Source of the DNA: Candidatus Chazhemtobacterium aquaticus
GTDB taxonomy: Bacteria > Patescibacteriota > Microgenomatia > UBA1400 > Chazhemtobacteraceae
Direction of reading: 5' to 3'
Length of the DNA stretch: 64,000 nucleotides
Assembly (NCBI RefSeq): GCF_009936135.1
Contig: NZ_CP047901.1
Span: forward strand, 695,927-759,926
The translations under genes were made by a program, and so were the position numbers. This document shows positions 6,489-20,736 of the stretch, piece after piece (the stretch's first letter is position 1; each line of letters starts with the position of its first letter). The notes beneath the pieces are model-generated. The model had not been told where the DNA came from and did no database searches. It saw only the letters and a program-made list of their open reading frames with translations.

Positions 6489-6525
6489 TGTACGTAAACT
6501 CTAAAAACCAAACAACCCCAACCAT

Positions 6526-6912: not shown

Positions 6913-7178
6913 ATACCCAATCTATCATCTTCAACAACTCGATACTAGAGTTTATTCCAGTTATCTCTAGACACACATTTAGACGATACGAGAAAAACTC
7001 ACCTCACCGATCCGCAATACCACCAAAAAACCTCGTCGAGCATTGAGCATAGACGAGGCGTGAATACCAACATTGTATTACACAACACAAAATCCGTCAA
7101 TATCTTATAGGACAACAAAGAGGGTCTTTCCAATCAAGAAACGATACGAAGCGTTACAATAAACATACCCAGACAACG

Positions 7179-7823
7179 ATGAGCATTCGAAACAGAATCA
7201 GAAAAACCAAACATCTACGCAACCGCCATCTTATCTGCGTCCTCGAGAACCCAAACGACATCAAAAATGTCGCTACTGTAATCAGAAACCTTTCAGCTTT
7301 CGGCGTAGAAAAACTATATATCATCAGTGACAAAAAAGGGGTACCCTACAACCTAGAATCATCAAGGAAAAATAAATATCTTACTAGACTCAGCGTTGGT
7401 GCAAACAAATGGATATTCATCAAGCGTTTCACCACCACTGACGAATGTGCTCTTCACCTAAAAAAGAATCTATACACCAACGCTATCACCTCACCTCATC
7501 AAAAAGATGCCAATAACATCAATCTCTATGAGGGCACATTTACTCAAAAAAGGCTGGCAGTTTGGTTCGGTAACGAATCACACGGGATCTCAAAAAAGGC
7601 GATCAAGCATGCAGATATGTGTATTCAAGTTCCCATGAGAGGCGTAGTCGAAAGCCTAAACCTGGCTACTAGTACAGGGATTATCTTAAGCTTTATCAGC
7701 TATCAGCGACTAAAATTTATCTTCACACATAGCCAAAACCGCTTCAAACCTCAAGGTTTCGCCAAACTAATTACTCGTTCCTGGCACAATTTTTTAAATT
7801 GGCCCCACGATAACATTGCCTAA
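7179..7823 (+). CDS. SpoU/TrmH-family RNA 2'-O-methyltransferase
   Basis: LICVLENPNDIKNV and VWFGNESHGIS...VPMRGVVESLNLATSTGI motifs of the SPOUT methylase family. Confidence 0.65.
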   Translation: MSIRNRIRKTKHLRNRHLICVLENPNDIKNVATVIRNLSAFGVEKLYIISDKKGVPYNLESSRKNKYLTRLSVGANKWIFIKRFTTTDECALHLKKNLYTNAITSPHQKDANNINLYEGTFTQKRLAVWFGNESHGISKKAIKHADMCIQVPMRGVVESLNLATSTGIILSFISYQRLKFIFTHSQNRFKPQGFAKLITRSWHNFLNWPHDNIA

Positions 7824-7914
7824 CCACTACAGGTTTATACTAACACCCCCCTATTTGCTACAATCTAACCAAGCCCATTAGACAAAGGCACCCACATTAA
7901 AAAGGAGGTTGTCA

Positions 7915-8091
7915 TGCCCGACTCCAAGAATCGCCAGGCCAATCGAAAGGCCAGAAACGCTGGTAAAGAAGCTGGCTTGACCAATGAGCAACAAAGACAG
8001 CTTCACGAAGAGTTAGGAAAAATCCCCAACAAAGACGATCTCCCCTATCGTGAAATCGTCGAAATCGCTAGGGATATCAAGGCTAAGTAGC
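7915..8091 (+). CDS. small basic hypothetical protein (58 aa; missed by the 60-aa ORF track)
   Basis: Strong SD AAAGGAGG 5 nt upstream of ATG; MPDSKNRQANRKARNAGKEAGL... Confidence 0.5.
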
Positions 8092-8565
8092 CACCACCAG
8101 AAAATGTCTAATGGGCTACTACCTATGAAAAACAGGTCAAACATCCTCCAGCTGGCCGTAGGCAAAAAATGTTTTAGAGCATCCAGAAGCATTGGCTCAT
8201 GTCTACTTCTTGAGTTCGGCAAACAAATTCCATATCTTAATCACAAGAACCAAAAAAGGACAAAAGGAGAATATGGACTACTCATAGAAATGGGAGAGTG
8301 GATACTTTCTAAGCAAGATGCACAAATCCTCTCCTCTGAAAGTGACATTCAAAAAATCGACACAAACATCCACATTCTTGAAGACAAAGCCATCACCAAC
8401 ATCTCTCTTAATAAAAAGGGTGATCTAGAAATTTCTTTTGACACAGCTTACTCCTTACAAATCCCATTTAACTCAAGCGAGACAGACCTTTGGATCTTCT
8501 TTACCCCTTCCGTATCCTACTGGCTTGATCAGCGAGGACGTTGGCAGCAGGAAGAAAGAAAATAG
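8050..8565 (+). CDS. hypothetical protein (start uncertain; likely begins at an internal Met)
   Basis: Open frame of 171 aa overlapping the small ORF; no recognisable motifs. Confidence 0.3.
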   Translation: MKSSKSLGISRLSSHHQKMSNGLLPMKNRSNILQLAVGKKCFRASRSIGSCLLLEFGKQIPYLNHKNQKRTKGEYGLLIEMGEWILSKQDAQILSSESDIQKIDTNIHILEDKAITNISLNKKGDLEISFDTAYSLQIPFNSSETDLWIFFTPSVSYWLDQRGRWQQEERK

Positions 8566-8858
8566 ATACACCAAACATAGTCAGCCTATATATCCATAAC
8601 TACACCGCGGTGGTATATACTCATATTATGCCCTTAAACAAAAACGATCTCAGGCTAGTTCGTCAAGTAGTCAATGAGGTAATCGAAAAAATATACAAAA
8701 ACCTACCCACCAAAAACGAATTCTTCAATTCCATGGATCAGCTCATCACCGAGCTGAAAGCCAATCGTCAAGAACAAACCTTCATCGTTCACAGACTGAC
8801 CAACCACGAAAACCGAATCCAAAAAGTCGAAAAACACCTCTCACTTTCTACATCCTAA
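8541..8858 (+). CDS. hypothetical protein
   Basis: ORF only; likely start at MPLNKNDL. Confidence 0.35.
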   Translation: MAAGRKKIDTPNIVSLYIHNYTAVVYTHIMPLNKNDLRLVRQVVNEVIEKIYKNLPTKNEFFNSMDQLITELKANRQEQTFIVHRLTNHENRIQKVEKHLSLSTS

Positions 8859-8921
8859 TCACAAGCGATAGCCTCTTTCCCAACACCCAATCCACTGTTA
8901 CACCAGATTGTTTCCACCACA

Positions 8922-9071
8922 CTATCCCTCCACTTCCTGCCACCTCGTTATTGGCAATCTTACTCCATCAAAAGCTTCAATTACAAAGTCAGGCCTGAAG
9001 ATAAATAACTCACTTGGAGCTGTATTATCCACGTGTATAAATCGCGATACATTTCGGAATCTTCTTAACAA
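8922..9071 (-). pseudogene. C-terminal remnant (about 49 codons) of a paralog of the Cys-rich secreted protein gene at 10731-12449
   Basis: Minus-strand translation gives ...NTAPSELFIFRPDFVIEAFDGVRLPITRWQEVEG*, identical to the C-terminus of the 572-aa protein; an in-frame stop sits immediately upstream at 9072-9074. Confidence 0.7.
8936..9026. repeat. 91-bp direct repeat copy 1 (2 mismatches versus 10745-10835)
   Basis: cctgccacctcgttattggcaatcttactccatcaaaagc[t/c]tcaattacaaagtcaggcc[t/g]gaagataaataactcacttggagctgtatt. Confidence 0.9.
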
Positions 9072-10135
9072 TTAAAGAAGATTTAAAATGCCCAGTGACT
9101 ACCCTCATCTTAGATATTCATTTGATCGAAAGACTTGTCTGACATATCGTCGGGTAATGAAAACACTAGCCAGTTCACTTACCTTTGATACTTCTGATGT
9201 AGCTCGCTTCCGGCTCCATGTTCTGGAGCACTACTACAAGTATGGTCTTGTTCCAACCCTGGATGTCTTTGGGGTCAAGAAGAGTACTCTGTACGACTGG
9301 AAGAAGCGCTTTGAAGTCTCTGGCAAGAAACTCAACAGTCTGGTACCTGTCTCCACCAAACCAAAAGAACTCAGGAGAATGAACACAGACTGGAGACTAG
9401 TGGAGTTGATCAAGACCATGAGAAAAGAATATGGAAACGTTGGTGCCAATATACTAAAACCCTTTGTAGATGCTTTGGCGACAGACCTAAATATCCCCAC
9501 CATTAGCAAGACCACCATCACTAAGATCGTTAAGATACGAAGATTAACTTTTGAGACCAAAGTCAAGCTCAAAAAGAAGAGTAAACAACCACGGTTGCGA
9601 ACCAAAAGGTCTCCTAAAGTCACTTCTGCAGGATACGTTCAACTGGATTGTATTACCCTTTACATTAATCGCGAAAAACATTTGTTTGTGTGCTGTATTG
9701 ATGTCTTTACTAAGTTTGCTTTAGTGAGACGAGTTAAGTCCTTGTCGTCTCAATCAGCCAAACAAGTCTTGGTGACTTTTGAACAACTAACCAGTCACTC
9801 TGTCCACACTGTGCAAACAGACAATGGTAGTGAGTTTCTTGGAGTGTTTGACAGATATCTCGAAGACCAAGGTATCAAACACATCTTTACTTACCCCAGG
9901 TCTCCCAGAATCAATGGAGTGGTGGAGAGACTCAACAGAACTGTCCAAAAAGAGTTCATTAAAAGAAGTGATGAGATTTACTACAATACCAAAGCCTTTG
10001 ATGAAAAGCTGACAAAATGGTTACATTGGTACAATTACCAAAGACCACACTACGCACTTAAATATTTATCACCCGTTCAATTCATTAACACTCAGATTCC
10101 GAAAAGTGGGTGATCTATACACCACGATCCCCAAA
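9031..10135 (+). mobile_element. IS481-like insertion sequence (ends approximate)
   Basis: Single DDE transposase ORF; imperfect inverted ends around ..cacgtgtata.. (left) and ..tatacaccacg.. (right). Confidence 0.5.
9088..10113 (+). CDS. DDE transposase, rve integrase-core, IS481-like
   Basis: QLDCITLY...TDNGSEF...NGVVER catalytic triad context and HWYNYQRPHYAL..SP tail. Confidence 0.75.
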   Translation: MPSDYPHLRYSFDRKTCLTYRRVMKTLASSLTFDTSDVARFRLHVLEHYYKYGLVPTLDVFGVKKSTLYDWKKRFEVSGKKLNSLVPVSTKPKELRRMNTDWRLVELIKTMRKEYGNVGANILKPFVDALATDLNIPTISKTTITKIVKIRRLTFETKVKLKKKSKQPRLRTKRSPKVTSAGYVQLDCITLYINREKHLFVCCIDVFTKFALVRRVKSLSSQSAKQVLVTFEQLTSHSVHTVQTDNGSEFLGVFDRYLEDQGIKHIFTYPRSPRINGVVERLNRTVQKEFIKRSDEIYYNTKAFDEKLTKWLHWYNYQRPHYALKYLSPVQFINTQIPKSG

Positions 10136-10160
10136 ATTCAAAAATGTGTATAATCAAAGC

Positions 10161-10466
10161 ATGCCAAGACAAAGAATCCAATTCAACCTCCCTGTATCTA
10201 TCCTCAAAGAAGGTAAAGTTTTTGTCGCTTATTCACCCGCAATTGATATTTCCACAGTCGGCGAAACATTTGAAGAGGTACAACAGCGATTTGAGGAAGC
10301 CGCAAACATTTTTTTCGAGGAAACGATCGAACACCAAACTTTCGAAGAAGCTTTACTCGAATTAGGATGGCAGAAAGAGAACAAGCGTCTCGTACCCCCC
10401 ATCGTCATATCAAACCAAACAAAACTATTCTCCTTGAGTCACGACGCACCCACACCACATGCCTAG
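10161..10466 (+). CDS. hicB: HicB-family antitoxin (UPF0150/RNase H-like fold)
   Basis: FNLPVSILKEGKVFVAYSPAIDISTVGETFEEVQQRFEEA matches the HicB N-terminal domain; the frame is also open from GTG at 10110, overlapping the transposase stop. Confidence 0.6.
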   Translation: MPRQRIQFNLPVSILKEGKVFVAYSPAIDISTVGETFEEVQQRFEEAANIFFEETIEHQTFEEALLELGWQKENKRLVPPIVISNQTKLFSLSHDAPTPHA

Positions 10467-10689
10467 TATCACCCCCATTCACTGGAAAAAGTTTGAAAAA
10501 TTTTTAATTTACGTGGGCTGCGAATTCAAAAGGCAAAAGGGAGATCACCGTGTATACTGGAGATCAGGCCTAATAAGACCAATCATTCTCCCAACATACA
10601 AAAGTTTACCTGTATTCATCATCAGAAACAATCTCAGAACACTCGGCATTGACCATAATGATTACCTAGAAATACTAAAAACCATCTAG
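10459..10689 (+). CDS. hicA: HicA-family mRNA interferase toxin
   Basis: 76 aa; KKFEKFLIYVGCEFKRQKGDHRVYW...PIILPTYKSLPVFIIRNNLRTLGI matches the HicA/YcfA fold; 8-nt overlap with hicB. Confidence 0.65.
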   Translation: MPSITPIHWKKFEKFLIYVGCEFKRQKGDHRVYWRSGLIRPIILPTYKSLPVFIIRNNLRTLGIDHNDYLEILKTI

Positions 10690-10730
10690 CCACAATCCCT
10701 TTCCACCACTTGCCAACACACTCCCTCCTC

Positions 10731-12449
10731 CTATCCTTCTACCTCCTGCCACCTCGTTATTGGCAATCTTACTCCATCAAAAGCCTCAATTACAAAGTCA
10801 GGCCGGAAGATAAATAACTCACTTGGAGCTGTATTGTTAGTTGTTCCCCTGTCTCTGTTAAGCGAGACACTGCTCCACCCCACAAAAGTACCCTCACCCA
10901 CAAACTGTTGCTCTGTATTCTCATCACCAGTCGAAGCAATGTTTAGGGCATCTGCCATATACACCCCTTCCACTTGAGTTACATTACTAGCAAAGGAAAT
11001 TGATCCTGAAGCAACAATGCCTAAATAAGATCCTGGCTCTACATTAATATTACTGGTAATGGTTACATTACCGTCATGGATGATAAATAGCTTCTCATCT
11101 ACTCCACCACCCCCCATATTCCAATCAGAATCAATAACAATATCGCCACTACTTAAATATATGGTTCCTTCCTCACTGGCTGTTGGTTTACCCGATCCAT
11201 TCCAGGACTCTCGAGGTAGTATCCCTGTTTGAGCATAATAGTAACCATAATCAAAGACTCTACCCTGATAGGAAGACAAAGCGCTTCTCCTGTTTCCACT
11301 AGCAATGGCATTAGGTGTCTCGTAAATACTTAATGACGGTGCAAATGGTAATGCCGAGTCTCCAGTGCTTGAGTTTCTAACCAAAGGTGTATATATCGTT
11401 CCTCCAATATCAACACTTCCACAAGACGCTTGATTCTCAGCTAATATACAGGTCGATGGGATCGTCACAGCAATTCCTTGTTCGCTGGACATATCTCCTC
11501 CCTGAGTTTGGAACCATCCGCCAAAGATTCGATACAATCCCACTCTTCTGGTTACCACCTGTCCCTGAGAGCTTAAAGATATTCCACTTAAAGACCCATC
11601 ACAAAGCAACTTAGGAGGGCTAGTTACCCACAGATTCTCATCCACTGTATATGTCAGGTTGTAGCTGTCGGGTACTGGCAAATTACCTCTTGTGTATGCA
11701 CCGTTAACGTTAGTGGTAGTGGTGTATGAGCTTGAGTGATTTACCTGAGCAGTCAAGGTAACCCCAGCCCCTTCAATCTTTGGTTGAGAGGCAACAGTTG
11801 AACAGTTACTCACCGTACTGGCATCAAAGAAAGTTCCCGAAATTGTTCCTCGACAGTTCTCCGTTTCTGACAGACTTACCCCCGCACAATCATTAGTTCC
11901 ACAGTTCTCACTACAAGTTCTAGTTCTAGTCCTAGTAAAAGTAGTTGGACTACAGGCACTCCAAGCACTCCAAGCAGAAATATATGGACCACATTCAGTA
12001 CAAGTAGTTCCTACAGGTTGCCAATACCAACCGCCACAGGGATCAGCATAGGTGTTGTAGCAAGTTTGAGTTCCACAACCTGAATTACAGAAATACCCAG
12101 TCTGACTATAGTTCCCTATATCACTACTCGAACAAGTACCACCACAACCATCACTCTGACCACAATATGGGGAAGAACAAGAAGGAGTACATGGGGGTGA
12201 ACATGAATAACAATTAAAAAACGTGGGACTACCACACGTCGCAGGATCACCTGGACATGCCCCGGGACAAGAATAATATTCCACACCCTGACAATATCCA
12301 GGCCCACAACTTCCATTTGTACACCACTGGGTATCGCTACGATACATACACGAAGTCCACTTCTCACAAACATCAGCAAATAAATCACTATATCCAAATA
12401 CAACAAAAACCAACACAAAAACAAATACAAACAACCCTTTTCTTATCAT
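10731..12449 (-). CDS. large Cys-rich secreted protein with TSP1-like WSxWS motif and beta-helix-like C-terminal half
   Basis: Signal peptide MIRKGLFVFVFVLVFVVFG; more than 50 Cys in the N-terminal 200 aa; WSAWSACSPTTFTRTRTRTC resembles a thrombospondin type-1 repeat; G/S/T/N-rich repeats in the C-terminal half. Confidence 0.6.
   Translation of the reverse strand: MIRKGLFVFVFVLVFVVFGYSDLFADVCEKWTSCMYRSDTQWCTNGSCGPGYCQGVEYYSCPGACPGDPATCGSPTFFNCYSCSPPCTPSCSSPYCGQSDGCGGTCSSSDIGNYSQTGYFCNSGCGTQTCYNTYADPCGGWYWQPVGTTCTECGPYISAWSAWSACSPTTFTRTRTRTCSENCGTNDCAGVSLSETENCRGTISGTFFDASTVSNCSTVASQPKIEGAGVTLTAQVNHSSSYTTTTNVNGAYTRGNLPVPDSYNLTYTVDENLWVTSPPKLLCDGSLSGISLSSQGQVVTRRVGLYRIFGGWFQTQGGDMSSEQGIAVTIPSTCILAENQASCGSVDIGGTIYTPLVRNSSTGDSALPFAPSLSIYETPNAIASGNRRSALSSYQGRVFDYGYYYAQTGILPRESWNGSGKPTASEEGTIYLSSGDIVIDSDWNMGGGGVDEKLFIIHDGNVTITSNINVEPGSYLGIVASGSISFASNVTQVEGVYMADALNIASTGDENTEQQFVGEGTFVGWSSVSLNRDRGTTNNTAPSELFIFRPDFVIEAFDGVRLPITRWQEVEG
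10745..10835. repeat. 91-bp direct repeat copy 2 (inside the 3' end of the 10731-12449 gene)
   Basis: See copy 1. Confidence 0.9.
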
Positions 12450-13012
12450 AAACCACTACCTCTATAAATCATGATAAAACTCTCAACTTCATTGGTCTCT
12501 ATATTGCTCAATATACCAACAATATCACCAAACCTAACAACATGCATCAGTTCTAAGAAACCAACCTCTTCTGGGTCAGACAAATAAGCACCAACTAACT
12601 GCTCATTAGTAGCCAATTGAGCATTTTCTTCAACCCAACCCTTGTCAACCATAACATTAATCTTCTCCATGCTCGTTTCTACTAATTCCTCCTTAAAGTA
12701 AATCAATGACTCAATATTCTTTGCAGTGTTGTAACAATCAACGCTTTTACCACTCCAAACTAATAAACAACCTACTCTTCCCAGAAACACTCCCGGAGAT
12801 GCTGTCGTCACACCACCGGTATCACTCGACTTGTACTCATGCAAAATCGTAGAAGCATCAGCCAAACTACTATTAACCAGATCCATATGAGATCGTAAAA
12901 AAACGTGACTTTTAATCAAAACCATTCCATACCAACCAACAATAGCCAAAAATATCAAACCCGATATCAACATCAACCAATTCACCCAATCTACCTTCTT
13001 ATTCTCTTCCAC
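12446..13012 (-). CDS. membrane-anchored hypothetical protein (co-transcribed with the Cys-rich protein)
   Basis: N-terminal TM helix; ATGA overlap with the downstream gene. Confidence 0.45.
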   Translation of the reverse strand: MEENKKVDWVNWLMLISGLIFLAIVGWYGMVLIKSHVFLRSHMDLVNSSLADASTILHEYKSSDTGGVTTASPGVFLGRVGCLLVWSGKSVDCYNTAKNIESLIYFKEELVETSMEKINVMVDKGWVEENAQLATNEQLVGAYLSDPEEVGFLELMHVVRFGDIVGILSNIETNEVESFIMIYRGSGL

Positions 13013-13065
13013 ACCTTCATTTAATCACAATTCGAAAAAACAACATCATCTCCAGTCATCAATAT

Positions 13066-13437
13066 CTAACAAGGACATGTCTCGTTTAAACCCACTGTTG
13101 ATGAGAAATATCCCACACTCCAGATACCAGAGTCCAGATATATCTTCCTGATGAACTTAAATTTTTTCTTTAATCGAAAGCTGGTATATGTCTTAATCCT
13201 TTGAACCACCCTGGCTACTGATATATCTGGTGAAATCTCAATTTGTAGATGAATGTGATCACTACCCGTGTTGACAGCGTAAAGATACAGTGTGGGATAT
13301 TTCTTGATCAGTTGGTGTAACTCTAACAGCAACTCTTCCTTGACATACGACTTGATGTATTTCCGTCTGTATTTTGTTCCCCAGACTAGATGGTACTGGT
13401 GTTGATAGGCACAGTGATTAAGGCTTCTCTTTCTCAT
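13066..13437 (-). CDS. tnpA: IS200/IS605-family Y1 (HUH) transposase TnpA
   Basis: YHLVWGTKYRRK and HIHLQIEISPDISVARVVQRIK motifs. Confidence 0.8.
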   Translation of the reverse strand: MRKRSLNHCAYQHQYHLVWGTKYRRKYIKSYVKEELLLELHQLIKKYPTLYLYAVNTGSDHIHLQIEISPDISVARVVQRIKTYTSFRLKKKFKFIRKIYLDSGIWSVGYFSSTVGLNETCPC

Positions 13438-13443
13438 GCAGTC

Positions 13444-13469
13444 AGCATATCAGGTCAGCCTGATATGCT
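13444..13469. repeat. perfect 11-bp-stem hairpin next to the tnpA start (putative IS200 end hairpin)
   Basis: agcatatcagg-tcag-cctgatatgct; a second hairpin ccccgcat...atgcgggg lies at about 13477-13527. Confidence 0.55.
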
Positions 13470-13541
13470 CATTCATCCCCGCATTCCATACGCTAACTAC
13501 TCTCGTGTGACGCTATTCCATGCGGGGTTTCCTGTAAGGAA

Positions 13542-13582
13542 GAAAAAACCGCCAGTCGGGTATGGGTATACCAAAACTGGCG
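13542..13582 (-). terminator. rho-independent terminator of the 13622-13996 gene
   Basis: ccgccagt...actggcgg stem followed by a T6 run on the minus strand. Confidence 0.6.
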
Positions 13583-13621
13583 GTCAGGGCCCTTCGCAGT
13601 TGCGATGGCGCACAGGTGCGC

Positions 13622-13996
13622 TTACGAAGGGCGGACGCGGCAGAACATCTCCGGGCTGTCGGGGACAAAGCCGTCTGCGCATTCCAGGTCGAAGACCACT
13701 TCCGGCTGCTCGACGGTGTTGAAGGTGATGCGCGTGACCCCGCTCAGGGAGTAGGGCACATTGCAGGAAGCGTAAACGCTGGGCGACGGGCTGTCAGCGG
13801 GAGGAACGAACATTCCCCCAGACCAGCCGTTGTCCAACACTTCCGTTGCGCACATCACGCGAGAACCGTCGGCGTAGAAGACGATCAGTCCACCGGGTTG
13901 CGACAGATCAACCTCATCCTGCGCCTGAATGGCCGAGCCACCCAGTGCCAGCATGAGAATCACTGCCATAAAAAGTACGCGGTTAACCTTGTTCAT
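13622..13996 (-). CDS. secreted hypothetical protein on a GC-rich (about 60%) foreign segment
   Basis: Signal peptide MNKVNRVLFMAVILMLALGGSAIQA; SD AGGAGGT 6 nt upstream; local GC and G content differ from the rest of the window. Confidence 0.55.
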   Translation of the reverse strand: MNKVNRVLFMAVILMLALGGSAIQAQDEVDLSQPGGLIVFYADGSRVMCATEVLDNGWSGGMFVPPADSPSPSVYASCNVPYSLSGVTRITFNTVEQPEVVFDLECADGFVPDSPEMFCRVRPS

Positions 13997-14220
13997 CTCG
14001 TACCTCCTGTACGTCTATAGGTTATCCGATATTTATTAATATACAACAAAGTCATCCTCTTGTCAAGTGTTATGGGTCTCTAGGGGGCAAAAATCAATAC
14101 AGCTAAACTGCTACTCAACTGGTATCAGAATACCAAATCCCCTCCTCCTGTCAACTCGGGTACACATCAAGCCATTCTATGTGTCAACCCCCACGCTACT
14201 AAATAACTACTCAACCAGCT

Positions 14221-14289
14221 ACAATATTCCCTATGCAGACTGTTATTAACAACACTCTTACTCACTATCTGCTTATCAAATCCTACCGC
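14221..14289. repeat. about 70-bp imperfect direct repeat copy 1 (matches 17381-17459, the start of the hydrolase gene)
   Basis: tcaaccagctacaatattcc[c/t]tatgcagactgttattaaca[a/c]c[a/g]ctcttactcactatctgct[t/c]atcaa. Confidence 0.85.
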
Positions 14290-14302
14290 TAGACAACTAC
14301 TC
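14243..14302 (+). pseudogene. 19-codon duplicate of the N-terminus of the alpha/beta hydrolase gene (MQTVINNTLTHYLLIKSYR*)
   Basis: Sequence identity to 17403.. including 22 bp of upstream sequence. Confidence 0.65.
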
Positions 14303-14531
14303 TATCAGCCCTACACACCCAAGTAGGTGAAACATTTCTACTAAACCCTATTGGAACAAAACCCACCTTGGCTGCTTGATGTATCGTTGCACCAGCCCCA
14401 GAAGAAAAATCTACCCCAGAAAGATCATAACCAATTCTCGAGGACAACCACTCAACATCGGACCATATCCCCCGAACGCAGACTCTACCGTCCCCCATAC
14501 GACCGTTAACCTCCTCCTCAGAAGTCAACAT
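14289..14531 (-). CDS. hypothetical protein or fragment (80 aa)
   Basis: ORF only. Confidence 0.25.
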   Translation of the reverse strand: MLTSEEEVNGRMGDGRVCVRGIWSDVEWLSSRIGYDLSGVDFSSGAGATIHQAAKVGFVPIGFSRNVSPTWVCRADRVVV

Positions 14532-14593
14532 AGCTTGAGTTAATAACTGATTAATGTCAGTTTGAGCATATATGCCTCGGGCTATTGCAAATA

Positions 14594-15079
14594 TCAGTGA
14601 ATCAGATATTTTTTTAATTCTCCAACCCTGGCGTTAAAAAGACGCTTTCCATAACCAAATCCTCTAAATTTTGGGTTTACAACTACATAAGCCAACTCAC
14701 CAGCCCTATCAAACAACCTCGTACCAACTACTTTATCGACCAAATCCCCAAACTTAGCAAGCCGAAATCGCACCGTTCTCCCTAACACATCGTAACCTGG
14801 TTCTAAGTATAACTGATTTTCAATCTTACTCCATTCATATATTTTATAAGTTCCAACCCCTATCAATTCATCATCACTTATGATCACTTTTGCATGCTGT
14901 TCTCCCGAAGTAATACTCTCTCCAAAAATAGAGACACCCCCCTCAATACTCTTATGCCCATAAAATTCTTGTGCTAGAAGTATAACCGAAAGATCTTGAG
15001 CCCAAACAGGAGCATCATGAAAATCCAAAAGCTTATCATCATTACGGAGCGACTCTCTACGCTCACATCCCATCATCAT
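14594..15079 (-). CDS. GNAT-family N-acetyltransferase
   Basis: VVVNPKFRGFGYGKRLFNA acetyl-CoA-binding motif. Confidence 0.6.
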   Translation of the reverse strand: MMMGCERRESLRNDDKLLDFHDAPVWAQDLSVILLAQEFYGHKSIEGGVSIFGESITSGEQHAKVIISDDELIGVGTYKIYEWSKIENQLYLEPGYDVLGRTVRFRLAKFGDLVDKVVGTRLFDRAGELAYVVVNPKFRGFGYGKRLFNARVGELKKYLIH

Positions 15080-15112
15080 AATTTATATTATATAATAACA
15101 GACACCATTTCT

Positions 15113-16392
15113 ATGGCACCAATAACTGAACTCTTGTCACATTTAGACAAATACCCAAACACCCCATATTTATCTTATACAGAAACAAATACACGAATAG
15201 GTAGAGCCATTACAACAAAAAGAACCAGAACTTCAGATATTTGAAGATGAACCAGCTATATACATCCACTACCACAAAAAGCCGTGGCAAAGGAAAATCG
15301 TTATTGACACACATCTTGACCATCCTGGATTTGCGATCAACCATCAAAAAGAGGCAGTTGCAATCGGAACTATCATTGATGCAAGTTTTACAGCTCCAAA
15401 AAACGAGTTGACCCTACCAGTCATTTTTTATGATCCAGAAGGAAATTACATAGACCACAGCGAACTATCAGATTTCCAGGAGAAAAACGGCCGATGAGTA
15501 AGTCAACCACACACGCTTCACCCTGCAAATACCCTTCTACCAAATTCACAAGCCATTGCGTCTCTAAAGGCCTACAATGACCGAGACATGATGTTTATGA
15601 GATCTGCTGATAATCTCGCAACATCCGCCATAATGCTCGAACTAATTGAATGGCTAATAAGTACATCACCAGGGGGAAACATAACATTTATATTCAATAA
15701 ACTAGAAGAAGTAAGACAGGTTTCAGCAACTGGTATTGCCAAACGAAAGCATACAATGTCAGAGCCGATCGACCAAAACACGTTCATTATCATCTTAGAA
15801 GCTGCAAGCGTCGAACCAATACCACTTAGTGAAGCAGTGCACAAAAAAAATGACATATACTGACGGCCCCGTAATCAGGGTCTCCGACGGTGACATCGTA
15901 TATCAACAATCCGACAAAACAAATCAAGCTGAACACCTTGCCCTAAACGCGGCTGCCAACGCCAGGCTTGAGATACAACATGGACCACTTACCAATAACT
16001 GCAACTCCACACCACACATTCTTTTTGGTAACACACCACATGTGATTGGTGTTACAATACCCTGCGAACACAAACACAATTTTACAAATGAAGGAACATT
16101 TGAACACGAAGCCATCCGTATCTCTGATTTACACACCACCACAAAACTACTTCAACAGATGATAACTGACATCGATGCCCCCATCAAACGAAACACTTCA
16201 GCATTGCTAGAACAAATATACCCGGTCTACCGACTTGATCCACAATCTTTAACATCAAAGAGAAAGCTCTGGTCACAATCGTACGCATGGGCACTACCCA
16301 GACTTCAGAGCGGACAACTCTTCCCAACCAATCAACTCTCAGCAACAAGATTAAGACTAAAACATATCAAAGCATCTATACAAAGTCGCTAA
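15113..16392 (+). pseudogene. M42-family metallopeptidase pseudogene (two frameshifts and one in-frame TGA)
   Basis: Peptidase-like segments lie in different frames: ..VIDTHLDHPGFAI.. (frame 0), an in-frame TGA at 15495-15497, ..RSADNLATSAIMLELIEWL..FIIILEAASVE.., then a frameshift inside an A8 run (15843-15850) into ..IGVTIPCEHKHNF..EAIRISDL.. Confidence 0.5.
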
Positions 16393-17318
16393 TGTATCCC
16401 GTCACCTGCTACTACCCAAAACTCTATGACACCCTTGTGCACCACAATGCTGATAAAACAATAACCTATCAACTTGACCAAATTGAAAAAACCAAATGGC
16501 TCTATTACAAACTAAAAACTTCCCCAAATTACGATACCCAAGTAGTAAACAGCTCAGATGACTCAGTTTTAAACCTCTGCCACTCATCCAAATACCTAAA
16601 CTCACTCAAAACCGGCAAACCTCAACCCCTAGCTGAAACATCAGGACTCATCTGGCAAAAAAATCTATATCCCGCCCATGTTAACTCCGTCTGGTCTTCG
16701 ATAAAATCCTCCATCTCCGCCCTAAACAAAAACATCTCGATGACCTTAACCAGTGGCGGCCATCACGCAGTTGCAGACAGAGGTTATGGCTTCAACCCCA
16801 TCAACACCATTGCTCTAACTACTAAGTATCTACTAACCAACAAGATCATAAACAACATAGCCATCCTTGATCTAGACGTTCACCTCGGCAACGGCACAAT
16901 CGAACTCCTTCAGCACACCTCCAATATCCACATCTTTGACATTTACCGATACACCAAACCAGAGTGGATTACTCGACTACCATCCACACTTCCTGATAAC
17001 ATCCGTGTCTATCAAACCGATTCCACGAACCAATATTTTAAACAGCTGGAGTCGTACCTTGCCCAAATTAAAAAGCTCAATCCTGGTTTAGTTATTTACC
17101 ACCACGGAGTTGATGTTTACAAAAATGATCGCTATGGCGGCATTCTCAAATTTTCTGAAGAAAAAATTCATCTCCGCGAGCGTCTACTCCTTAAATCTCT
17201 TTACCGTCATGTCCCGATTATGATTATTCTTGGAGGTGGTTATGTTAAATACGACAATCCAAGTCTCACCACCTCACGCAAAAAACACCCTCCACCGCCT
17301 CCACACCATCTTCTTTGA
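16392..17318 (+). CDS. histone deacetylase-family (HDAC/AcuC/acetylpolyamine amidohydrolase-like) protein
   Basis: SGGHHAVADRGYGFNPIN and ILDLDVHLGNGT match the HDAC signature; start overlaps the preceding stop (TAATG). Confidence 0.7.
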   Translation: MYPVTCYYPKLYDTLVHHNADKTITYQLDQIEKTKWLYYKLKTSPNYDTQVVNSSDDSVLNLCHSSKYLNSLKTGKPQPLAETSGLIWQKNLYPAHVNSVWSSIKSSISALNKNISMTLTSGGHHAVADRGYGFNPINTIALTTKYLLTNKIINNIAILDLDVHLGNGTIELLQHTSNIHIFDIYRYTKPEWITRLPSTLPDNIRVYQTDSTNQYFKQLESYLAQIKKLNPGLVIYHHGVDVYKNDRYGGILKFSEEKIHLRERLLLKSLYRHVPIMIILGGGYVKYDNPSLTTSRKKHPPPPPHHLL

Positions 17319-17380
17319 AGAACTTGAGAAACAAACAAATGAATTATCATCAACATTCTAGAAAACTAGCCCCCCTCCCC

Positions 17381-17459
17381 TCAACCAGCTACAATATTCC
17401 TTATGCAGACTGTTATTAACACCGCTCTTACTCACTATCTGCTCATCAACCCCAAAGCC
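17381..17459. repeat. about 70-bp direct repeat copy 2 (native start of the hydrolase gene)
   Basis: See 14221-14289. Confidence 0.85.
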
Positions 17460-18164
17460 AAAAAGACTGCCATCCTTCTCCATGGTTGGGGTCACAACTC
17501 TTCACTTTGGCAACAAGCTGTTCTTGAGTTTGACTCGCGATACCGATACTATCTGCTCGATCTTCCTGGTTTTGGCAGTACTCAAAACCTTCCCCCCGGT
17601 GCCGACATCCCCGAATTTACTCAGTTTGTTTTAAGCTTCATCAAAAAAATGAAAATTAAACAACCTCTTGTTATCGGTCACTCCTTTGGCGGCCAAATTG
17701 CTATAGACCTAGCTGCCTCATATTCCAATCTGCTCTCCGCCCTCATCCTTATAGCCCCGGCTGGTATCAGGACCATAGACCCCAAACTAAATCTCAAGGT
17801 TTACCTCATAAATCACCTTGCTCGCCTCTATCGTCCAATTAAAAAGGCAATTCCTTTTCTGGCTCACACCCCCTTAACCAACAATCTCGCCTCGGCAGAT
17901 TACAAAGCTGCTTCTCCCGCCAATCGTCAGGTCTTGAAAAAAATTATCCGCCATGACCTGACTCATAAGCTTAACCAAATCTCTACTCCTACCCTCATCG
18001 TCTGGCCCGAGCTTGATCAAGAACTTCCTAATTTCTCAAGAACCTTAACAGATCATATCCCCAACTCCCGTCTGCGCGTCCTCTATGGCCAAGACCACAA
18101 CCCCCATCTAAACAACCCATCAGAGCTAATCAGTACCATCAATCACTTTCTCTCTACCCTATGA
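17403..18164 (+). CDS. alpha/beta-fold hydrolase
   Basis: GHSFGG nucleophile-elbow motif; 253 aa. Confidence 0.7.
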   Translation: MQTVINTALTHYLLINPKAKKTAILLHGWGHNSSLWQQAVLEFDSRYRYYLLDLPGFGSTQNLPPGADIPEFTQFVLSFIKKMKIKQPLVIGHSFGGQIAIDLAASYSNLLSALILIAPAGIRTIDPKLNLKVYLINHLARLYRPIKKAIPFLAHTPLTNNLASADYKAASPANRQVLKKIIRHDLTHKLNQISTPTLIVWPELDQELPNFSRTLTDHIPNSRLRVLYGQDHNPHLNNPSELISTINHFLSTL

Positions 18165-19561
18165 TCACTCTCCCCCTCACTCACCATCTTCACATCCTTC
18201 AACTCGAAGGCTACTCCCCTCTTCGTTTTCTCCGTTGGTGGCTTACCCATCCACTTGATTTCCAAGCCCCCATCAAAACCACTCTTAAATACACCCCTAA
18301 AGCCAAACGCCTTCTAGTCCTTTCTATTTTTAGCGCGTCTCTCCTCATTACCCTCTCATATATATATCTCTCTCTACCCACCACCCTGCTCATATCCTTT
18401 CTTCTTTTCTTCTTCCCCTATCCCCTTCTCTTCTTTGCTCTCTTACTCATCAAACCCTATGAGATTATTAATCTTCATCACACTATCATCAACACCAGCA
18501 AAATCCTTGCCTCTCAATCCAATCTCACCACCATCGGCATCACTGGATCCTATGGCAAAACCAGTACCAAAAACTTTCTCTATCATCTCTTAGACCATCA
18601 CCACTACTCTCTTAAAACCCCTGCTTCATACAACACCATCTTTGGTATTGCCAAAGCCATCTCTCTTGAACTAACCTCCAAAGTCGACTCCTTCATCTGT
18701 GAGTATGGCGCCTACGTCAGAGGTGAGATCAAACAACTAACCCGTATGGTTCCTCCAGACTACGCCATCCTCACCGCTATCGGACCACAACACCTTGAGC
18801 GTTTTAAATCCTTACACAACACTACCCTGGCCAAATTCGAACTCATCGACTCCGTTATTCCTCAAAACGCCCTGGTTAATCTTGACAACGAGCATATCCG
18901 CCACCATCTTGAAAAACACTCTTCATATCAAGGTCTTAACACTTACTCATTTAAGTACAAAAAGGCTACCTTTTATGTCTCTCAGTACCAACTTACCTCG
19001 ACAGGCTCCAGCTTTACCATTAAATACAAGGGGGAAAGCTATCCCTACTCCACTCATCTTTTTGGTACCAGTAATCTAGAGAACTTAGTTGCCGCCATCT
19101 CCATGTGCTTACTCCTTAAAGTCCCCCGTGCGACCATTACCAAAGCCCTTACCACCCTTAAACCCGCTCCCAATCGCCTTGAGATCAAAACCATCAACCA
19201 AGCCACCGTTATCGACAACACTTACTCCAGCAATGTAGAGGGTTTCACCAGTATTATTAATGACCTCAAACCTCTTAAAGGTAAGAAGGCCTTAATTACT
19301 CCAGGCATTGTTGAGTTAGGCCAACAAACCACACCTATCCATCACCAAGTTGGCAAGCAAGCGGCCACTGTCTTTGACACTATTATCTTAGTTGGTCAAT
19401 CCCCAAGAACATTAGCTCTAGAAAAAGCTATTAAATCCACCCACCCCTCAACCACTATTACTTACCTCACCTCGCCTTCAGATTACTGGCCCACAGTCAG
19501 AACCTTATCCCAAACCCACTCCTGGATTTTGCTTGAAAACGACTTACCAGACAACTACTAA
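18161..19561 (+). CDS. murF: Mur-ligase family protein, MurF-like, with a hydrophobic N-terminal extension of about 110 aa
   Basis: GITGSYGKTSTK P-loop of Mur ligases; convergent with ddl. Confidence 0.6.
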   Translation: MITLPLTHHLHILQLEGYSPLRFLRWWLTHPLDFQAPIKTTLKYTPKAKRLLVLSIFSASLLITLSYIYLSLPTTLLISFLLFFFPYPLLFFALLLIKPYEIINLHHTIINTSKILASQSNLTTIGITGSYGKTSTKNFLYHLLDHHHYSLKTPASYNTIFGIAKAISLELTSKVDSFICEYGAYVRGEIKQLTRMVPPDYAILTAIGPQHLERFKSLHNTTLAKFELIDSVIPQNALVNLDNEHIRHHLEKHSSYQGLNTYSFKYKKATFYVSQYQLTSTGSSFTIKYKGESYPYSTHLFGTSNLENLVAAISMCLLLKVPRATITKALTTLKPAPNRLEIKTINQATVIDNTYSSNVEGFTSIINDLKPLKGKKALITPGIVELGQQTTPIHHQVGKQAATVFDTIILVGQSPRTLALEKAIKSTHPSTTITYLTSPSDYWPTVRTLSQTHSWILLENDLPDNY

Positions 19562-20736
19562 GCCCCTCCTTTTACCCCACCCTTAGCAAATCCGCTTAAG
19601 ATATTACTCTCAAAGGTAGTCACTTTCTTTTGTTTCTTTTGCCAATCCGATACAGCTAGCTCGACCAACTCATCTACTAACTTATCAAACTTCACTCCAG
19701 TTTTTTCCCACAAGTAAAAAGCTAATGATCCTGGCATGGTGTTGATCTCATTAAAATACAATCTCTTACCGTCATACATAAAATCAACCCTAGCAATCCC
19801 CTTACCCCCAATCGCTCTAAAAAATCTTATCGCCATCTCCTCCACTGCTTTAATAATCTTTTTATCAACTCTGGCTGGCATCAATCTATCCGCAGCTGCC
19901 ATTCCCTGCGTCTTACCACTCTTCTTAGCTCCTGGCTTAATATACTTATCCTCAAATGACAGCACCTCACCGCTAGTCAATGGCTGCTCCGTAATCGAAA
20001 CTTGATATGGATCATTTCCCTTAATCGAGATGTTAACCTCAACCATATTCTTAACTGCCTTTTCCACCAAAACTCGGCTATCATACGCCAAAGCCACCTC
20101 AATCGCGTTGACCAGTTCGCTTTTACTCTTTGCTCTTGTGATTCCAATACTAGAACCCAAACTATTAGGCTTTACAAATACATCACTCCCCAGTTTGTCT
20201 ATTTCACTCAACAATCCTTTCTTATTAACACCCCACTCTTCTTCACTGACTAACACATCCTCGACTACCTCTATACCCAAATCCTTAGCAACTCTTTTAG
20301 CCAAATACTTATCCATTCCCAAAGCACTTGCCCCCACTCCACATCCCACTAAAGGCAATCCCGTCAGCTCCACCAATCCCTGCATCGTTCCATCCTCACC
20401 ATTCTTTCCATGAAATACTGGGAACACCACCCCTATCTCCTCGGCTACTCCTCCAAAACCCATCATCCCTTTTCCAAGTAGCTTTAGCTCTCTATCCGGC
20501 GGCAACACCACTCGTTTCCCGTCTTTAACCGGATTGTTTAAGTTTTGGTAGAAAGATGGCTCCAAAAATTTATCTCCTCCCATATACCATTCACCTGATT
20601 TACTAACATAAATAGGCAATACCTTATGACCCGCTCCTTTTAAGGCATGCATCACCTGCAACGCCGTCACGATCGAAACTTCATGCTCAGTACTTACACC
20701 TCCATACAATACCAAAACGTTTCTCATAAACGCCAT
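19558..20736 (-). CDS. ddl: D-alanine--D-alanine ligase
   Basis: VLVLYGGVSTEHEVS...VFPVFHGKNGEDGTMQGLLE ATP-grasp Ddl motifs. Confidence 0.85.
   Translation of the reverse strand: MAFMRNVLVLYGGVSTEHEVSIVTALQVMHALKGAGHKVLPIYVSKSGEWYMGGDKFLEPSFYQNLNNPVKDGKRVVLPPDRELKLLGKGMMGFGGVAEEIGVVFPVFHGKNGEDGTMQGLVELTGLPLVGCGVGASALGMDKYLAKRVAKDLGIEVVEDVLVSEEEWGVNKKGLLSEIDKLGSDVFVKPNSLGSSIGITRAKSKSELVNAIEVALAYDSRVLVEKAVKNMVEVNISIKGNDPYQVSITEQPLTSGEVLSFEDKYIKPGAKKSGKTQGMAAADRLMPARVDKKIIKAVEEMAIRFFRAIGGKGIARVDFMYDGKRLYFNEINTMPGSLAFYLWEKTGVKFDKLVDELVELAVSDWQKKQKKVTTFESNILSGFAKGGVKGGA

What the first reader, a model, noticed from the sequence alone, without database searches (positions are those of the whole stretch)
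14221..17459. A 3.1-kb block is inserted between a duplicated 5' end of the alpha/beta hydrolase gene (about 70-bp imperfect direct repeats)
14221-14289 repeats 17381-17459 with 4 mismatches, including a 19-codon pseudo-start (MQTVINNTLTHYLLIKSYR*). The intervening block carries an 80-aa ORF, a GNAT acetyltransferase, an M42 peptidase pseudogene and an HDAC-family deacetylase. No integrase lies inside the block. The pattern resembles an integrative element that carries a copy of its target gene end, or a partial tandem duplication followed by insertion.
Basis: seen in the sequence. Interest (0 to 1): 0.6.

Follow-up and report, generated by a model that had tools for sequence, protein, structure and literature searches.

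The report
Strain-variable insertion duplicating a gene start
A 3.1-kb packet of three decaying enzyme genes was added just upstream of a cell-wall operon in an uncultivated Microgenomates bacterium by a recombination event that duplicated the first 70 bases of the target; it is a real but fairly ordinary piece of genome plasticity, not an integrase-driven mobile element.

Summary
The repeat is real: window 14210-14279 and 17380-17449 match at 66 of 70 bases, and the only other long repeat in the window is an unrelated 105-bp pair. Each copy holds the hydrolase's -10 box, its ATG and 16 codons. The 3100 bp between them (14280-17379) carry an 80-aa ORF, a GNAT, an M42-like metallohydrolase pseudogene and an HDAC-family gene. 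No recombinase, terminal inverted repeats, tRNA or ncRNA is present.

Sibling and more distant contigs (hydrolase 98, 88 and 81% identical) have precise empty sites with one copy of the 70 bp, so the block is a derived insertion.

The block is about 99-100% identical between genomes whose flanking core genes differ by 4-5%. It was therefore exchanged recently. It is decaying independently in different strains.

A sibling contig shows a nested second event at the same gene: a 4150-bp insert with a 238-bp duplication and a different junction. A third case lies in the window: a 105-bp duplication of a gene's 3' end around an IS plus hicBA.

Best explanation: duplicative integration with one homologous and one illegitimate joint, most simply a circularised donor fragment entering by a single crossover. 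The block then spread by flanking homology. It is a new member of a known kind, of modest interest.

The parts
14011..14209 (.). U: native intergenic region upstream of the hydrolase. It is shared with the divergently transcribed 124-aa gene and sits directly next to the single repeat copy in empty-site contigs.
   Evidence: Window 14015-14279 aligns at 98% to L006 2274-2538 and L007 1-251, which run straight on into the hydrolase. Promoter-like sites on the minus strand at 14066-14038 and 14154-14127.
14210..14279 (+). H_L: left copy of the 70-bp repeat. It holds the -10 box TACAAT at 14220-14225, an ATG at 14233 and 16 hydrolase codons. The reading frame then runs into block sequence and stops (pseudo-ORF 14233-14292).
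   Evidence: Its alleles resemble those of the L004/L006 strains, not the window's own right copy.
14280..17379 (.). Inserted block of 3100 bp, absent from the empty-site contigs L006, L007, L008 and L012.
   Evidence: It differs at 0-1 sites per 100 bp from L004, against 4-12 per 100 bp in the flanking core. GC skew is -0.34, close to the host value.
14289..14531 (-). 80-aa ORF of unknown function. Its stop codon lies about 10 nt from the left junction. Whether it is a real gene is not established.
   Evidence: No hit in Pfam, NCBIfam, PADLOC or PHROGs. Its DNA is invariant in the window, L004, L013 and L028, so selection cannot be tested.
14594..15079 (-). GNAT acetyltransferase, 161 aa.
   Evidence: Pfam Acetyltransf_1 E=2.4e-5. 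Homologous GNAT genes sit divergently next to M42-like genes in L032 and L033. Its N-terminal half is deleted in L013 and L028.
15113..16392 (+). M42-like dinuclear metallohydrolase pseudogene. In the window it has a TGA stop at 15495-15497 and two frameshifts (near 15175 and 15843).
   Evidence: L004 reads in a single frame with a different single stop. Family assignment.
16392..17361 (+). HDAC-family deacetylase/amidohydrolase. The likely start is at 16392. The window copy has an extra A at 17280, so the called ORF ends at 17318 instead of 17361.
   Evidence: Pfam Hist_deacetyl E=1.2e-32. Indel seen. tblastn splits the L004 protein at 17281. The same 343-aa product is called on Logan contig L001.
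17380..17449 (+). H_R: right copy of the repeat, the functional start of the hydrolase gene.
   Evidence: L002 and L019 show the same HDAC-end/H/hydrolase junction.
17403..18164 (+). Alpha/beta hydrolase, the intact target gene. Its stop overlaps the start of the next gene (ATGA at 18161-18164).
   Evidence: Pfam Abhydrolase_6 E=2.3e-23. Orthologues are followed by the Mur ligase, and by ddl where the contig extends that far (L009, L020), down to 47% identity.
18161..19561 (+). Mur ligase family gene, apparently in one operon with the hydrolase. It is conserved core sequence to the right of the insertion.
   Evidence: Pfam Mur_ligase_M E=4.7e-35. dS=0.18 against L004.

Best explanation
The block is a strain-variable insertion made by general recombination, not by a dedicated recombinase.

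Proposed origin. A DNA fragment from a related Microgenomates genome ran from just past the 80-aa ORF, through GNAT, the M42-like gene and the HDAC gene, into the first about 70 bp of that donor's own hydrolase promoter and start. It joined the recipient chromosome through one homologous and one illegitimate joint. The simplest form is that the fragment was closed into a circle (closure joint = 14279|14280) and entered by a single RecA-type crossover within the 70-bp homology (Campbell-type insertion-duplication). That reaction necessarily leaves the homologous segment as a direct repeat on both sides of the insert. Because the fragment carried the 5' end and -10 box, it also regenerates an intact hydrolase/Mur-ligase operon on the right. 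On the left it leaves a 19-codon stump behind the original upstream region.

Later history. Once formed, the U-H-block-H-hydrolase arrangement moved between strains by ordinary double crossover in the flanking homology. This explains why the window's left copy carries another strain's alleles (the 4 mismatches). The cargo is a conserved GNAT / M42-like pair plus an HDAC-family gene. At least the M42-like gene is no longer maintained, and the block is eroding.

Shown: the insertion, the precise empty sites, the duplication, the absence of recombinase or element ends, recent exchange, decay, and recurrence of the pattern. Inferred: the circular intermediate, DNA uptake as the entry route, and that the donor natively had the HDAC gene next to its hydrolase.
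For: 1. Empty sites. L006/L007 (hydrolase protein 98% identical to the window's and identical to L004's), L012 (88%) and L008 (81%) each have the U-type upstream sequence (U itself in L006, L007 and L008; only the 13 nt present in the short L012 contig), one H copy and the hydrolase. The breakpoints fall exactly at the repeat ends. More distant orthologues also lack the block.

2. No element machinery. The block proteins are a GNAT, an M42-like hydrolase and an HDAC-family enzyme, with no PADLOC or PHROGs hit below E=0.01. No inverted repeats sit at the block ends. There is no tRNA or Rfam family at the site. Seventy bp is far longer than a transposase target duplication.

3. Nested second event. 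L004/L005 equals L006 (flanks 99.96% and 99.79% identical) plus 4150 bp, bounded by a 238-bp duplication of the same hydrolase 5' end. The insert is ordinary chromosomal DNA of another strain type: a fragment of the 188-aa gene, the 121-aa gene, U, H and the block. The new joint (hydrolase nt 238 | interior of the 188-aa gene) has no microhomology. This is the structure expected if a circularised fragment integrated by a single crossover.

4. Third case in the window. 105-bp direct repeats (8922-9026 / 10731-10835) of the 3' end of the 572-aa gene flank an rve-family IS plus hicBA. L029 is a precise empty site.

5. Recent exchange. dS between the window and L004 is 0-0.03 for the GNAT, HDAC and 80-aa genes and up to 0.055 in the M42-like pseudogene fragments, against 0.13-0.18 for the hydrolase and Mur ligase. 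There are 0-1 differences per 100 bp across most of 14043-17342 (4-9 per 100 bp in a patch at 14843-15542), against 4-12 per 100 bp to the right.

6. Independent decay. The window has a TGA stop, two frameshifts and the HDAC +A. L004 has a different single stop. L013 and L028 have a 776-bp deletion.

7. The block keeps the host lineage's extreme negative GC skew (-0.34), unlike the nearby IS200 (-0.07) and IS/hicBA (-0.13). The donor was therefore probably a relative, with the block in the same orientation.

8. Literature. Linear DNA in cells can be circularised and integrated by a single crossover, alongside homology-facilitated illegitimate recombination (PMC3240628). The related Microgenomates genome Ch65 encodes DprA, ComEC and ComEA (PMC7143001).
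Against: 1. No donor with an HDAC gene natively next to a hydrolase orthologue was found. HDAC homologues drop from 99% to 40% identity and sit in unrelated contexts.

2. There is no read-level evidence for a circular form.

3. Seventy bp is near the lower limit for efficient RecA-mediated crossover.

4. The left end of the block falls neatly about 10 nt beyond a stop codon. That is tidier than a random closure joint, although selection or chance can explain it.

5. The L004/L005 three-copy structure crosses a 238-bp near-identical repeat in a mixed-strain sample; in L005, copy a carries L007-like alleles. The joint is real, but it could belong to a circle or a tandem duplication rather than an integrated copy.

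6. RecA and competence genes were not looked for in this genome.

7. A recombinase encoded outside the 64-kb window cannot be excluded.
Confidence: 0.6

Rival explanations
1. The block is an integrase-less integrative element (a satellite or cis-mobilisable element). Its attachment core is the 70-bp hydrolase start, and it is moved by a tyrosine or serine recombinase encoded elsewhere in the genome.
For: Direct repeats at a conserved gene end, precise empty sites with one copy, and a block more similar between strains than the core genome are all typical of integrative elements.
Against: There is no integrase in the block, and none among the window ORFs scanned. No independent cargo is seen at this site in any related contig. 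The second event at the same gene has a different duplication length and joint and carries plain chromosomal DNA. Spread between strains is explained by flanking homology. The cargo is decaying enzymes with no element functions.
Confidence: 0.1
2. Two-step origin: a short tandem duplication of the hydrolase promoter and start came first, and unrelated DNA was later inserted between the two copies by illegitimate recombination.
For: It gives the same end product. The region from about 7000 to 17400 is a compositionally atypical, highly variable island where several rearrangements have happened.
Against: No contig shows the intermediate with two adjacent copies and no block. It needs two independent rare events at the same few bases. 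The L004 and 105-bp cases would each need the same coincidence.
Confidence: 0.1
3. A linear fragment was inserted with a homologous anchor in the hydrolase and an illegitimate joint formed inside the displaced anchor region or across sister chromosomes (HFIR-like, template-switch or unequal-crossover variant), with no circular intermediate.
For: It uses the same two joints (one homologous, one illegitimate) as the favoured model. HFIR and transformation-triggered duplications are documented (PMC3240628, PMC3784515). The L004 joint lacks microhomology.
Against: As I recall the original descriptions (not checked in the papers fetched), HFIR usually replaces or deletes recipient DNA rather than duplicating the anchor. 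The merodiploid mechanism uses pre-existing repeats and gives duplications of 100-900 kb. Sequence alone cannot separate this from the circle model.
Confidence: 0.15
4. The block is ancestral, and the 'empty' contigs are deletions by recombination between pre-existing repeats. There was no insertion in this lineage.
For: Recombination between 70-238-bp direct repeats would regenerate exactly the observed empty sites. L006 could derive from L004 in this way.
Against: It does not explain where the repeats came from. The block is confined to a shallow set of strains and is about 99-100% identical among them, while the core differs by 4-5%. Outgroups at 88%, 81%, 62% and 47-48% hydrolase identity lack it, and the two closest (88%, 81%) have the uninterrupted upstream-H-hydrolase arrangement.
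Confidence: 0.05

Closest known systems
Campbell-type (single-crossover) integration of circular DNA, i.e. insertion-duplication
   Same: The homologous segment ends up as a direct repeat on both sides of the insert. The repeat length differs from event to event (70, 238, 105 bp here). An intact gene is regenerated when the fragment carries the gene end and promoter. Recombination between the repeats can reverse it. Circularisation of linear DNA followed by a single crossover is documented in E. coli (PMC3240628).
   Different: These are natural events in an uncultivated Patescibacteria lineage with no vector. The donor and the circular form have not been observed. The homology is only 70 bp.
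Homology-facilitated illegitimate recombination (HFIR) during transformation or conjugation
   Same: Foreign DNA is added through one homologous anchor and one illegitimate joint, with no recombinase or element ends. The lineage probably has DNA-uptake genes (PMC7143001).
   Different: As I recall the original descriptions (not checked in the papers fetched), HFIR normally replaces or deletes recipient DNA next to the anchor. Here the anchor is duplicated.
Integrative elements that carry a copy of their target gene's end (islands and prophages in tRNA genes; from memory, e14 and phage 21 in icd)
   Same: Imperfect direct repeats that include a gene end. The gene stays intact after insertion. 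Empty sites have one copy.
   Different: There is no integrase or excisionase. The 5' end with the promoter is duplicated rather than a 3' end. No fixed crossover core is seen, and the second event uses different boundaries. The cargo is only enzymes, and it is decaying.
Transformation-generated merodiploids in Streptococcus pneumoniae (PMC3784515)
   Same: Duplications arise as by-products of recombination with incoming DNA that is partly repeated in the chromosome.
   Different: Those are 100-900-kb tandem duplications between pre-existing IS-derived repeats. Here 70-238-bp duplications flank newly added DNA.

Membership tests
Site-specific integrative element / genomic island | Encodes, or sits next to, a tyrosine or serine recombinase | tested here: not met
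   Block proteins are a GNAT, an M42-like hydrolase, an HDAC-family enzyme and an unassigned 80-aa ORF. The 20 largest other window ORFs are housekeeping genes. Only an rve transposase and an IS200 TnpA lie nearby, both outside the block.
Site-specific integrative element / genomic island | attL/attR direct repeats, and an empty attB with one copy in relatives | tested here: met
   70-bp repeats. Single-copy empty sites in L006, L007, L008 and L012.
Site-specific integrative element / genomic island | The same attachment core is reused: independent insertions share identical boundaries | tested here: not met
   The second event in L004/L005 duplicates 238 bp, with its novel joint elsewhere. 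No other cargo was found at the 70-bp site.
Site-specific integrative element / genomic island | An excised circular form with the att core | not testable with these tools
   This needs raw reads or PCR. Contigs ending at the repeat (L013, L030) are uninformative.
DDE transposon / insertion sequence | Terminal inverted repeats and a transposase within the inserted segment | tested here: not met
   No inverted repeat pairs the two ends of 14280-17379, and there is no transposase domain.
DDE transposon / insertion sequence | A short target-site duplication (2-15 bp) | tested here: not met
   The duplication is 70 bp. Its two copies carry different strain alleles.
Campbell-type insertion-duplication by homologous recombination | The insert is flanked by direct copies of a segment that is single-copy in the uninserted chromosome, with no fixed length | tested here: met
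   70 bp (window), 238 bp (L004/L005) and 105 bp (window 8922/10731), each with a single-copy empty site.
Campbell-type insertion-duplication by homologous recombination | One insert boundary is a native adjacency in the donor; the other is a novel closure joint | tested here: inconclusive
   In L004 the right boundary is inherited from a window-like donor and the left one is a novel joint without microhomology. For the primary 70-bp event no donor was found.
Campbell-type insertion-duplication by homologous recombination | RecA and a DNA entry route are present in the organism | not tested
   Only inferred from the related genome Ch65, which encodes DprA, ComEC and ComEA (PMC7143001).
Anti-phage defence or toxin-antitoxin cassette | Proteins match known defence or TA families | tested here: not met
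   No PADLOC hits for the 80-aa ORF, GNAT or HDAC-family protein. The GNAT pairs with an M42-like gene in other genomes, which suggests a metabolic module.

The most novel reading that the evidence does not exclude
In the UBA1400 Microgenomates, which have extreme strand asymmetry and DNA-uptake genes, gene gain may routinely proceed without integrases. Circularised foreign or sibling-strain fragments, some perhaps produced by IS activity, would be captured by a single crossover at gene ends. If so, 70-240-bp duplications of gene starts and ends are a lineage-wide scar that dates and orders acquisitions, and promoter-bearing gene starts such as this one act as preferred landing sites.
Probability: 0.2. 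Interest if true: 0.5.

Novelty: new member of a known kind. Interest (0 to 1): 0.33.

Why it matters
The locus is a clean natural before-and-after series. It includes empty sites, an occupied site, a nested re-insertion and deletion derivatives. Together they show how an uncultivated, host-dependent bacterium with a tiny genome gains and then loses accessory genes without a dedicated mobile-element enzyme. Three such gene-end duplications lie within about 9 kb. That points to recombination of taken-up DNA as a practical route of gene flow in Patescibacteria, and it suggests a simple genomic signature to look for. In itself it is ordinary genome plasticity: the cargo is decaying, and no new molecular machine is implied.

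Tried and rejected
1. Common intergenic motif: rejected. There are two copies only, and 0 of 100 shuffles reach that. The 15-nt start of the repeat has one extra 2-mismatch copy at 14295-14309. An alignment of that region is only marginal (9 of 500 shuffles), so it is not used.

2. Assembly artefact: rejected. The junctions recur in Logan, ENA, JGI and NCBI assemblies from different samples.

3. tRNA or ncRNA target: none found.

4. Phage origin: there is no HDAC relative in viral contigs and no PHROGs hit below E=0.01.

5. Defence or TA system: no PADLOC hits.

6. Search for a donor with the block next to something else failed. A genome-contig scan with the HDAC protein found nothing. The metagenome scan found only a window-like contig. 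The protein search showed a gap from 99% to 40% identity. Distant HDAC homologues sit beside dnaJ or asnS/aspS, and L020 has an HDAC remnant after ddl.

7. The IS200 TnpA next door (13066-13437) as the agent: rejected. Its element (13079-13542) is a strain-specific insertion absent from other block-bearing contigs (L004, L028), and from my knowledge IS200/IS605 elements make no duplications.

8. Hidden recombinase in the large broken ORF: rejected. Its family has M42/M20-type metal ligands. A PDB sequence search gave nothing.

9. Selection test on the 80-aa ORF: impossible, because there is no variation.

10. Microhomology at the L004 joint: none.

Full report
**1. Observation**

The repeat is real. 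The repeat finder reports 14210-14279 and 17380-17449 as a 70-nt direct pair with 66/70 identity and 3170-nt spacing. A 42-nt core occurs exactly twice in the window and never in 100 shuffles. In a whole-window self-BLAST it is one of only two significant repeats. The left copy opens the 19-codon pseudo-ORF MQTVINNTLTHYLLIKSYR* (14233-14292).

Each copy contains TACAAT followed 7 nt later by the ATG. A TACAAT or TATAAT box 7-9 nt before the start codon is conserved in hydrolase orthologues down to 47% identity. The repeat therefore carries the core promoter, a leaderless-type start (inference) and 16 codons.

**2. Content of the block (14280-17379)**

- An 80-aa ORF (14289-14531, minus strand) with no family hit.
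- A GNAT (14594-15079, minus strand; Pfam E=2.4e-5).
- A roughly 427-codon gene on the plus strand, split over three frames by one TGA and two frameshifts.
- An HDAC-family gene (E=1.2e-32).

The broken gene alone hits Peptidase_M42 only weakly (E=3.6e-4, below the cut-off). A search of 1.84 billion representatives found a family of 410-450-aa proteins. Their alignment has invariant H-x-D, D, E-E, E and H columns, and 19 of 24 members hit Peptidase_M42. 'M42-like metallohydrolase' is therefore justified.

In two unrelated contigs (L032, L033) an M42-like gene sits divergently next to a GNAT, as it does here. The cargo thus includes a conserved enzyme pair. Nothing in the block matches recombinases, phage families (PHROGs, E<0.01) or defence systems. 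There is no tRNA or Rfam family near the site.

**3. Organism and setting**

Hydrolase homologues are from Patescibacteria/Microgenomates (Shapirobacteria, Collierbacteria). The whole window has G 13.2%, C 31.4% and GC skew -0.41, regardless of gene orientation. This strand disparity is already described for the order UBA1400 (Ch65: G 14.97%, C 29.83%; PMC7143001).

The hydrolase overlaps the start of a Mur ligase gene, and ddl follows. The hydrolase-Mur ligase pair is conserved in distant relatives, with ddl following where the contig reaches that far (L009, L020). To the left, roughly 7000-17400 is the compositionally most atypical part of the window. It contains:
- an rve-family IS with hicBA;
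- a large secreted protein;
- hypervariable small secreted proteins;
- an IS200-type TnpA element.

The block sits at the right-hand edge of this variable island, against conserved core sequence.

**4. Empty and occupied alleles**

Exact-protein look-ups and BLAST gave a natural series.

- Occupied: the window, L001 (Logan), L002 (ENA), L019, L013, L028 and L004/L005.
- Empty: L006 and L007 (hydrolase protein identical to L004's), L012 (88%) and L008 (81%).

In each empty contig the sequence upstream of the single repeat is that of the left copy (window 14015-14209). The sequence downstream is that of the right copy, and exactly one 70-bp unit is present. More distant orthologues (62% and 47-48%) have no block either.

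The block is confined to a shallow group, while the uninterrupted upstream-H-hydrolase arrangement extends at least to the 81% relative. The insertion is therefore the derived state.

**5. Age and fate**

Between the window and L004, dS is:
- 0.13 for the hydrolase and 0.18 for the Mur ligase;
- 0 for the 80-aa ORF, 0.03 for the GNAT and 0.01 for the HDAC gene;
- 0-0.055 for the M42-like pseudogene fragments.

Differences are 0-1 per 100 bp across most of 14043-17342 (4-9 per 100 bp in a patch at 14843-15542) and rise to 4-12 per 100 bp from about 17343. The block, with its left repeat copy, has therefore moved between strains more recently than the strains diverged.

This also explains the four mismatches. 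The left copy carries alleles like those of L004/L006, while the right copy is the window's own allele.

The cargo is eroding independently in different strains:
- the window has W->TGA, two frameshifts and an extra A at 17280 that changes the HDAC C-terminus;
- L004's M42-like gene is in one frame with a different stop (Q->TAG);
- L013 and L028 have lost 776 bp (14764-15539), including half of the GNAT.

**6. Recurrence**

L004/L005 equals L006 (flanks 99.96% and 99.79% identical) plus a 4150-bp insert bounded by a 238-bp duplication of the same hydrolase 5' end. The insert is plain chromosomal DNA of another strain type: the N-terminal part of the 188-aa gene (window 12753-13078), the 121-aa gene, U, a repeat copy and the block. 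Its only novel joint links hydrolase nucleotide 238 to the interior of the 188-aa gene, with no microhomology.

Caveat: the 238-bp copies are identical in L004. In L005 one copy carries alleles of an empty-site strain. The joint is real, but it might belong to a circle or a tandem duplicate rather than the integrated form as assembled.

Separately, the window's only other long repeat is 8922-9026 / 10731-10835 (105 bp, 95%). It duplicates the 3' end of the 572-aa gene around a 1.7-kb insert. That insert consists of an rve-family IS (imperfect terminal repeats at 9033-9062 / 10094-10122, no target duplication) plus hicB/hicA. L029 is a precise single-copy empty site.

So there are three insertions with 70-238-bp gene-end duplications in one neighbourhood.

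**7. Mechanism**

A fixed-core site-specific recombinase does not fit. There is no integrase, no reuse of the boundaries, and plain chromosomal cargo in the second event. A transposase does not fit either: there are no element ends and the duplication is 70 bp.

All three structures are what a single homologous crossover produces when the incoming molecule is a closed fragment that contains a piece of the target. The homologous piece is duplicated. One insert boundary is a native adjacency from the donor, and the other is the illegitimate closure joint.

Only events that carry the gene end, here with its -10 box and start codon, regenerate an intact essential operon. That would explain why such events are the ones seen (inference).

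Circularisation of linear DNA followed by a single crossover, and the related one-anchor HFIR route, are documented (PMC3240628). Recombination-generated duplications during transformation are also documented (PMC3784515). DNA-uptake genes are reported in a related genome.

A linear HFIR-like or template-switch variant cannot be separated from the circle model by sequence alone. After formation, the allele can spread by ordinary double crossover in U and the hydrolase, and it can be lost again by recombination between the repeats.

**8. What remains open**

- The original donor was not found. HDAC relatives fall from 99% to 40% identity and lie in other contexts.
- The block keeps the lineage's strong negative GC skew (-0.34), unlike the nearby IS elements. 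This points to a related donor in the same orientation, as the model predicts, but it is indirect.
- No read-level test for circles was possible.

**9. Verdict**

The 'inserted block with duplicated target end' reading is right. The 'integrative element' reading is not supported.

This is a new example of a known kind of event: insertion-duplication by general recombination. It is documented unusually well by natural alleles in an uncultivated Patescibacteria lineage. Interest is modest (0.33). It would be higher if gene-end duplications prove to be a general signature of gene gain in this lineage.

Noticed in passing
window 8922-9026 and 10731-10835 (insert 9027-10730): A second long direct repeat (105 bp, 95%) duplicates the 3' end of the 572-aa gene. 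It flanks an rve-family IS (imperfect terminal repeats at 9033-9062 / 10094-10122, no target duplication) plus hicB- and hicA-like genes. L029 is a precise single-copy empty site and L004 is occupied. The logic is the same as in the finding.
   Followed up: partly
L004/L005 5590-5827 and 9978-10215 (insert 5828-9977): A nested second event in a sibling strain. A 4150-bp insert of another strain's chromosomal DNA, including the block, is bounded by a 238-bp duplication of the hydrolase 5' end. The novel joint has no microhomology. Threading through the repeat is uncertain because of strain mixture.
   Followed up: yes
window 13079-13542 (TnpA ORF 13066-13437, minus strand): An IS200/IS605-type TnpA-only element (Pfam 5e-27, NCBIfam IS200) about 464 bp long. 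It is a strain-specific insertion absent from L004, L008, L028 and L030. Logan contig L001 starts inside it, which may mean it is multi-copy. The ORF's last codons run into flanking DNA.
   Followed up: partly
window 13543-14010 (ORF 13622-13996, minus strand): A 124-aa signal-peptide, Cys-containing ORF lies in a GC 0.59, zero-skew patch within a genome of GC 0.45 and skew -0.41. It is hypervariable: 59% aa identity to L004's copy, which is itself 90% identical to L008's. The alternative flank type (L006) has an unrelated 133-aa secreted ORF here.
   Followed up: partly
whole window: GC skew is extreme at -0.41 (G 13.2%, C 31.4%) whatever the gene orientation, so proteins from the two strands differ in amino-acid make-up. 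This is already described for UBA1400 Microgenomates (Ch65, PMC7143001).
   Followed up: yes
window 14764-15539 (absent in L013 and L028): A 776-bp deletion variant of the block removes the N-terminal half of the GNAT and the first third of the M42-like gene. The deletion lies between short imperfect repeats (ACCAAATYC...CAAGCC).
   Followed up: partly
window 17280: An extra A in a homopolymer run shifts the HDAC frame, so the called ORF ends at 17318. L004, L013 and L019 encode an intact 357-aa product ending at the equivalent of 17361. The same 343-aa product is called on Logan contig L001, so the shift is probably real.
   Followed up: partly
window 14220-14235 and 17390-17405; L009, L020, L021 upstream regions: A TACAAT or TATAAT box 7-9 nt upstream of the hydrolase ATG is conserved down to 47% protein identity. 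No Shine-Dalgarno spacing is available. This suggests a leaderless mRNA for the hydrolase/Mur-ligase operon.
   Followed up: no
window 14295-14309: AACTACTCTATCAGC, just after the left repeat, resembles the start of the repeat (AACTACTCAACCAGC, 2 mismatches). A local alignment is only marginally above shuffles (9 of 500). It could be the scar of an older event or chance in a G-poor genome.
   Followed up: partly
L004 12160-14229 / L006 4651-6720, versus window 19562-19570: Sibling strains carry a 2.07-kb insertion (SpoU methylase and small ORFs) between the Mur ligase and ddl. The window lacks it. It has no long flanking duplication, only a short CTAACTCAAC motif near both ends.
   Followed up: no
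L032 1-1885; L033 4823-6889: GNAT and M42-like genes form a conserved divergent pair in unrelated genomes (one without strand skew). This suggests a functional acyl-transfer/deacylation module of unknown substrate.
   Followed up: partly
L020 11396-11725: A 109-aa N-terminal remnant of an HDAC-family gene lies between ddl and aspS in a relative with 48% hydrolase identity. In L018 an intact HDAC homologue follows an asnS/aspS-type gene. HDAC-family genes seem patchy and prone to decay in these lineages.
   Followed up: no
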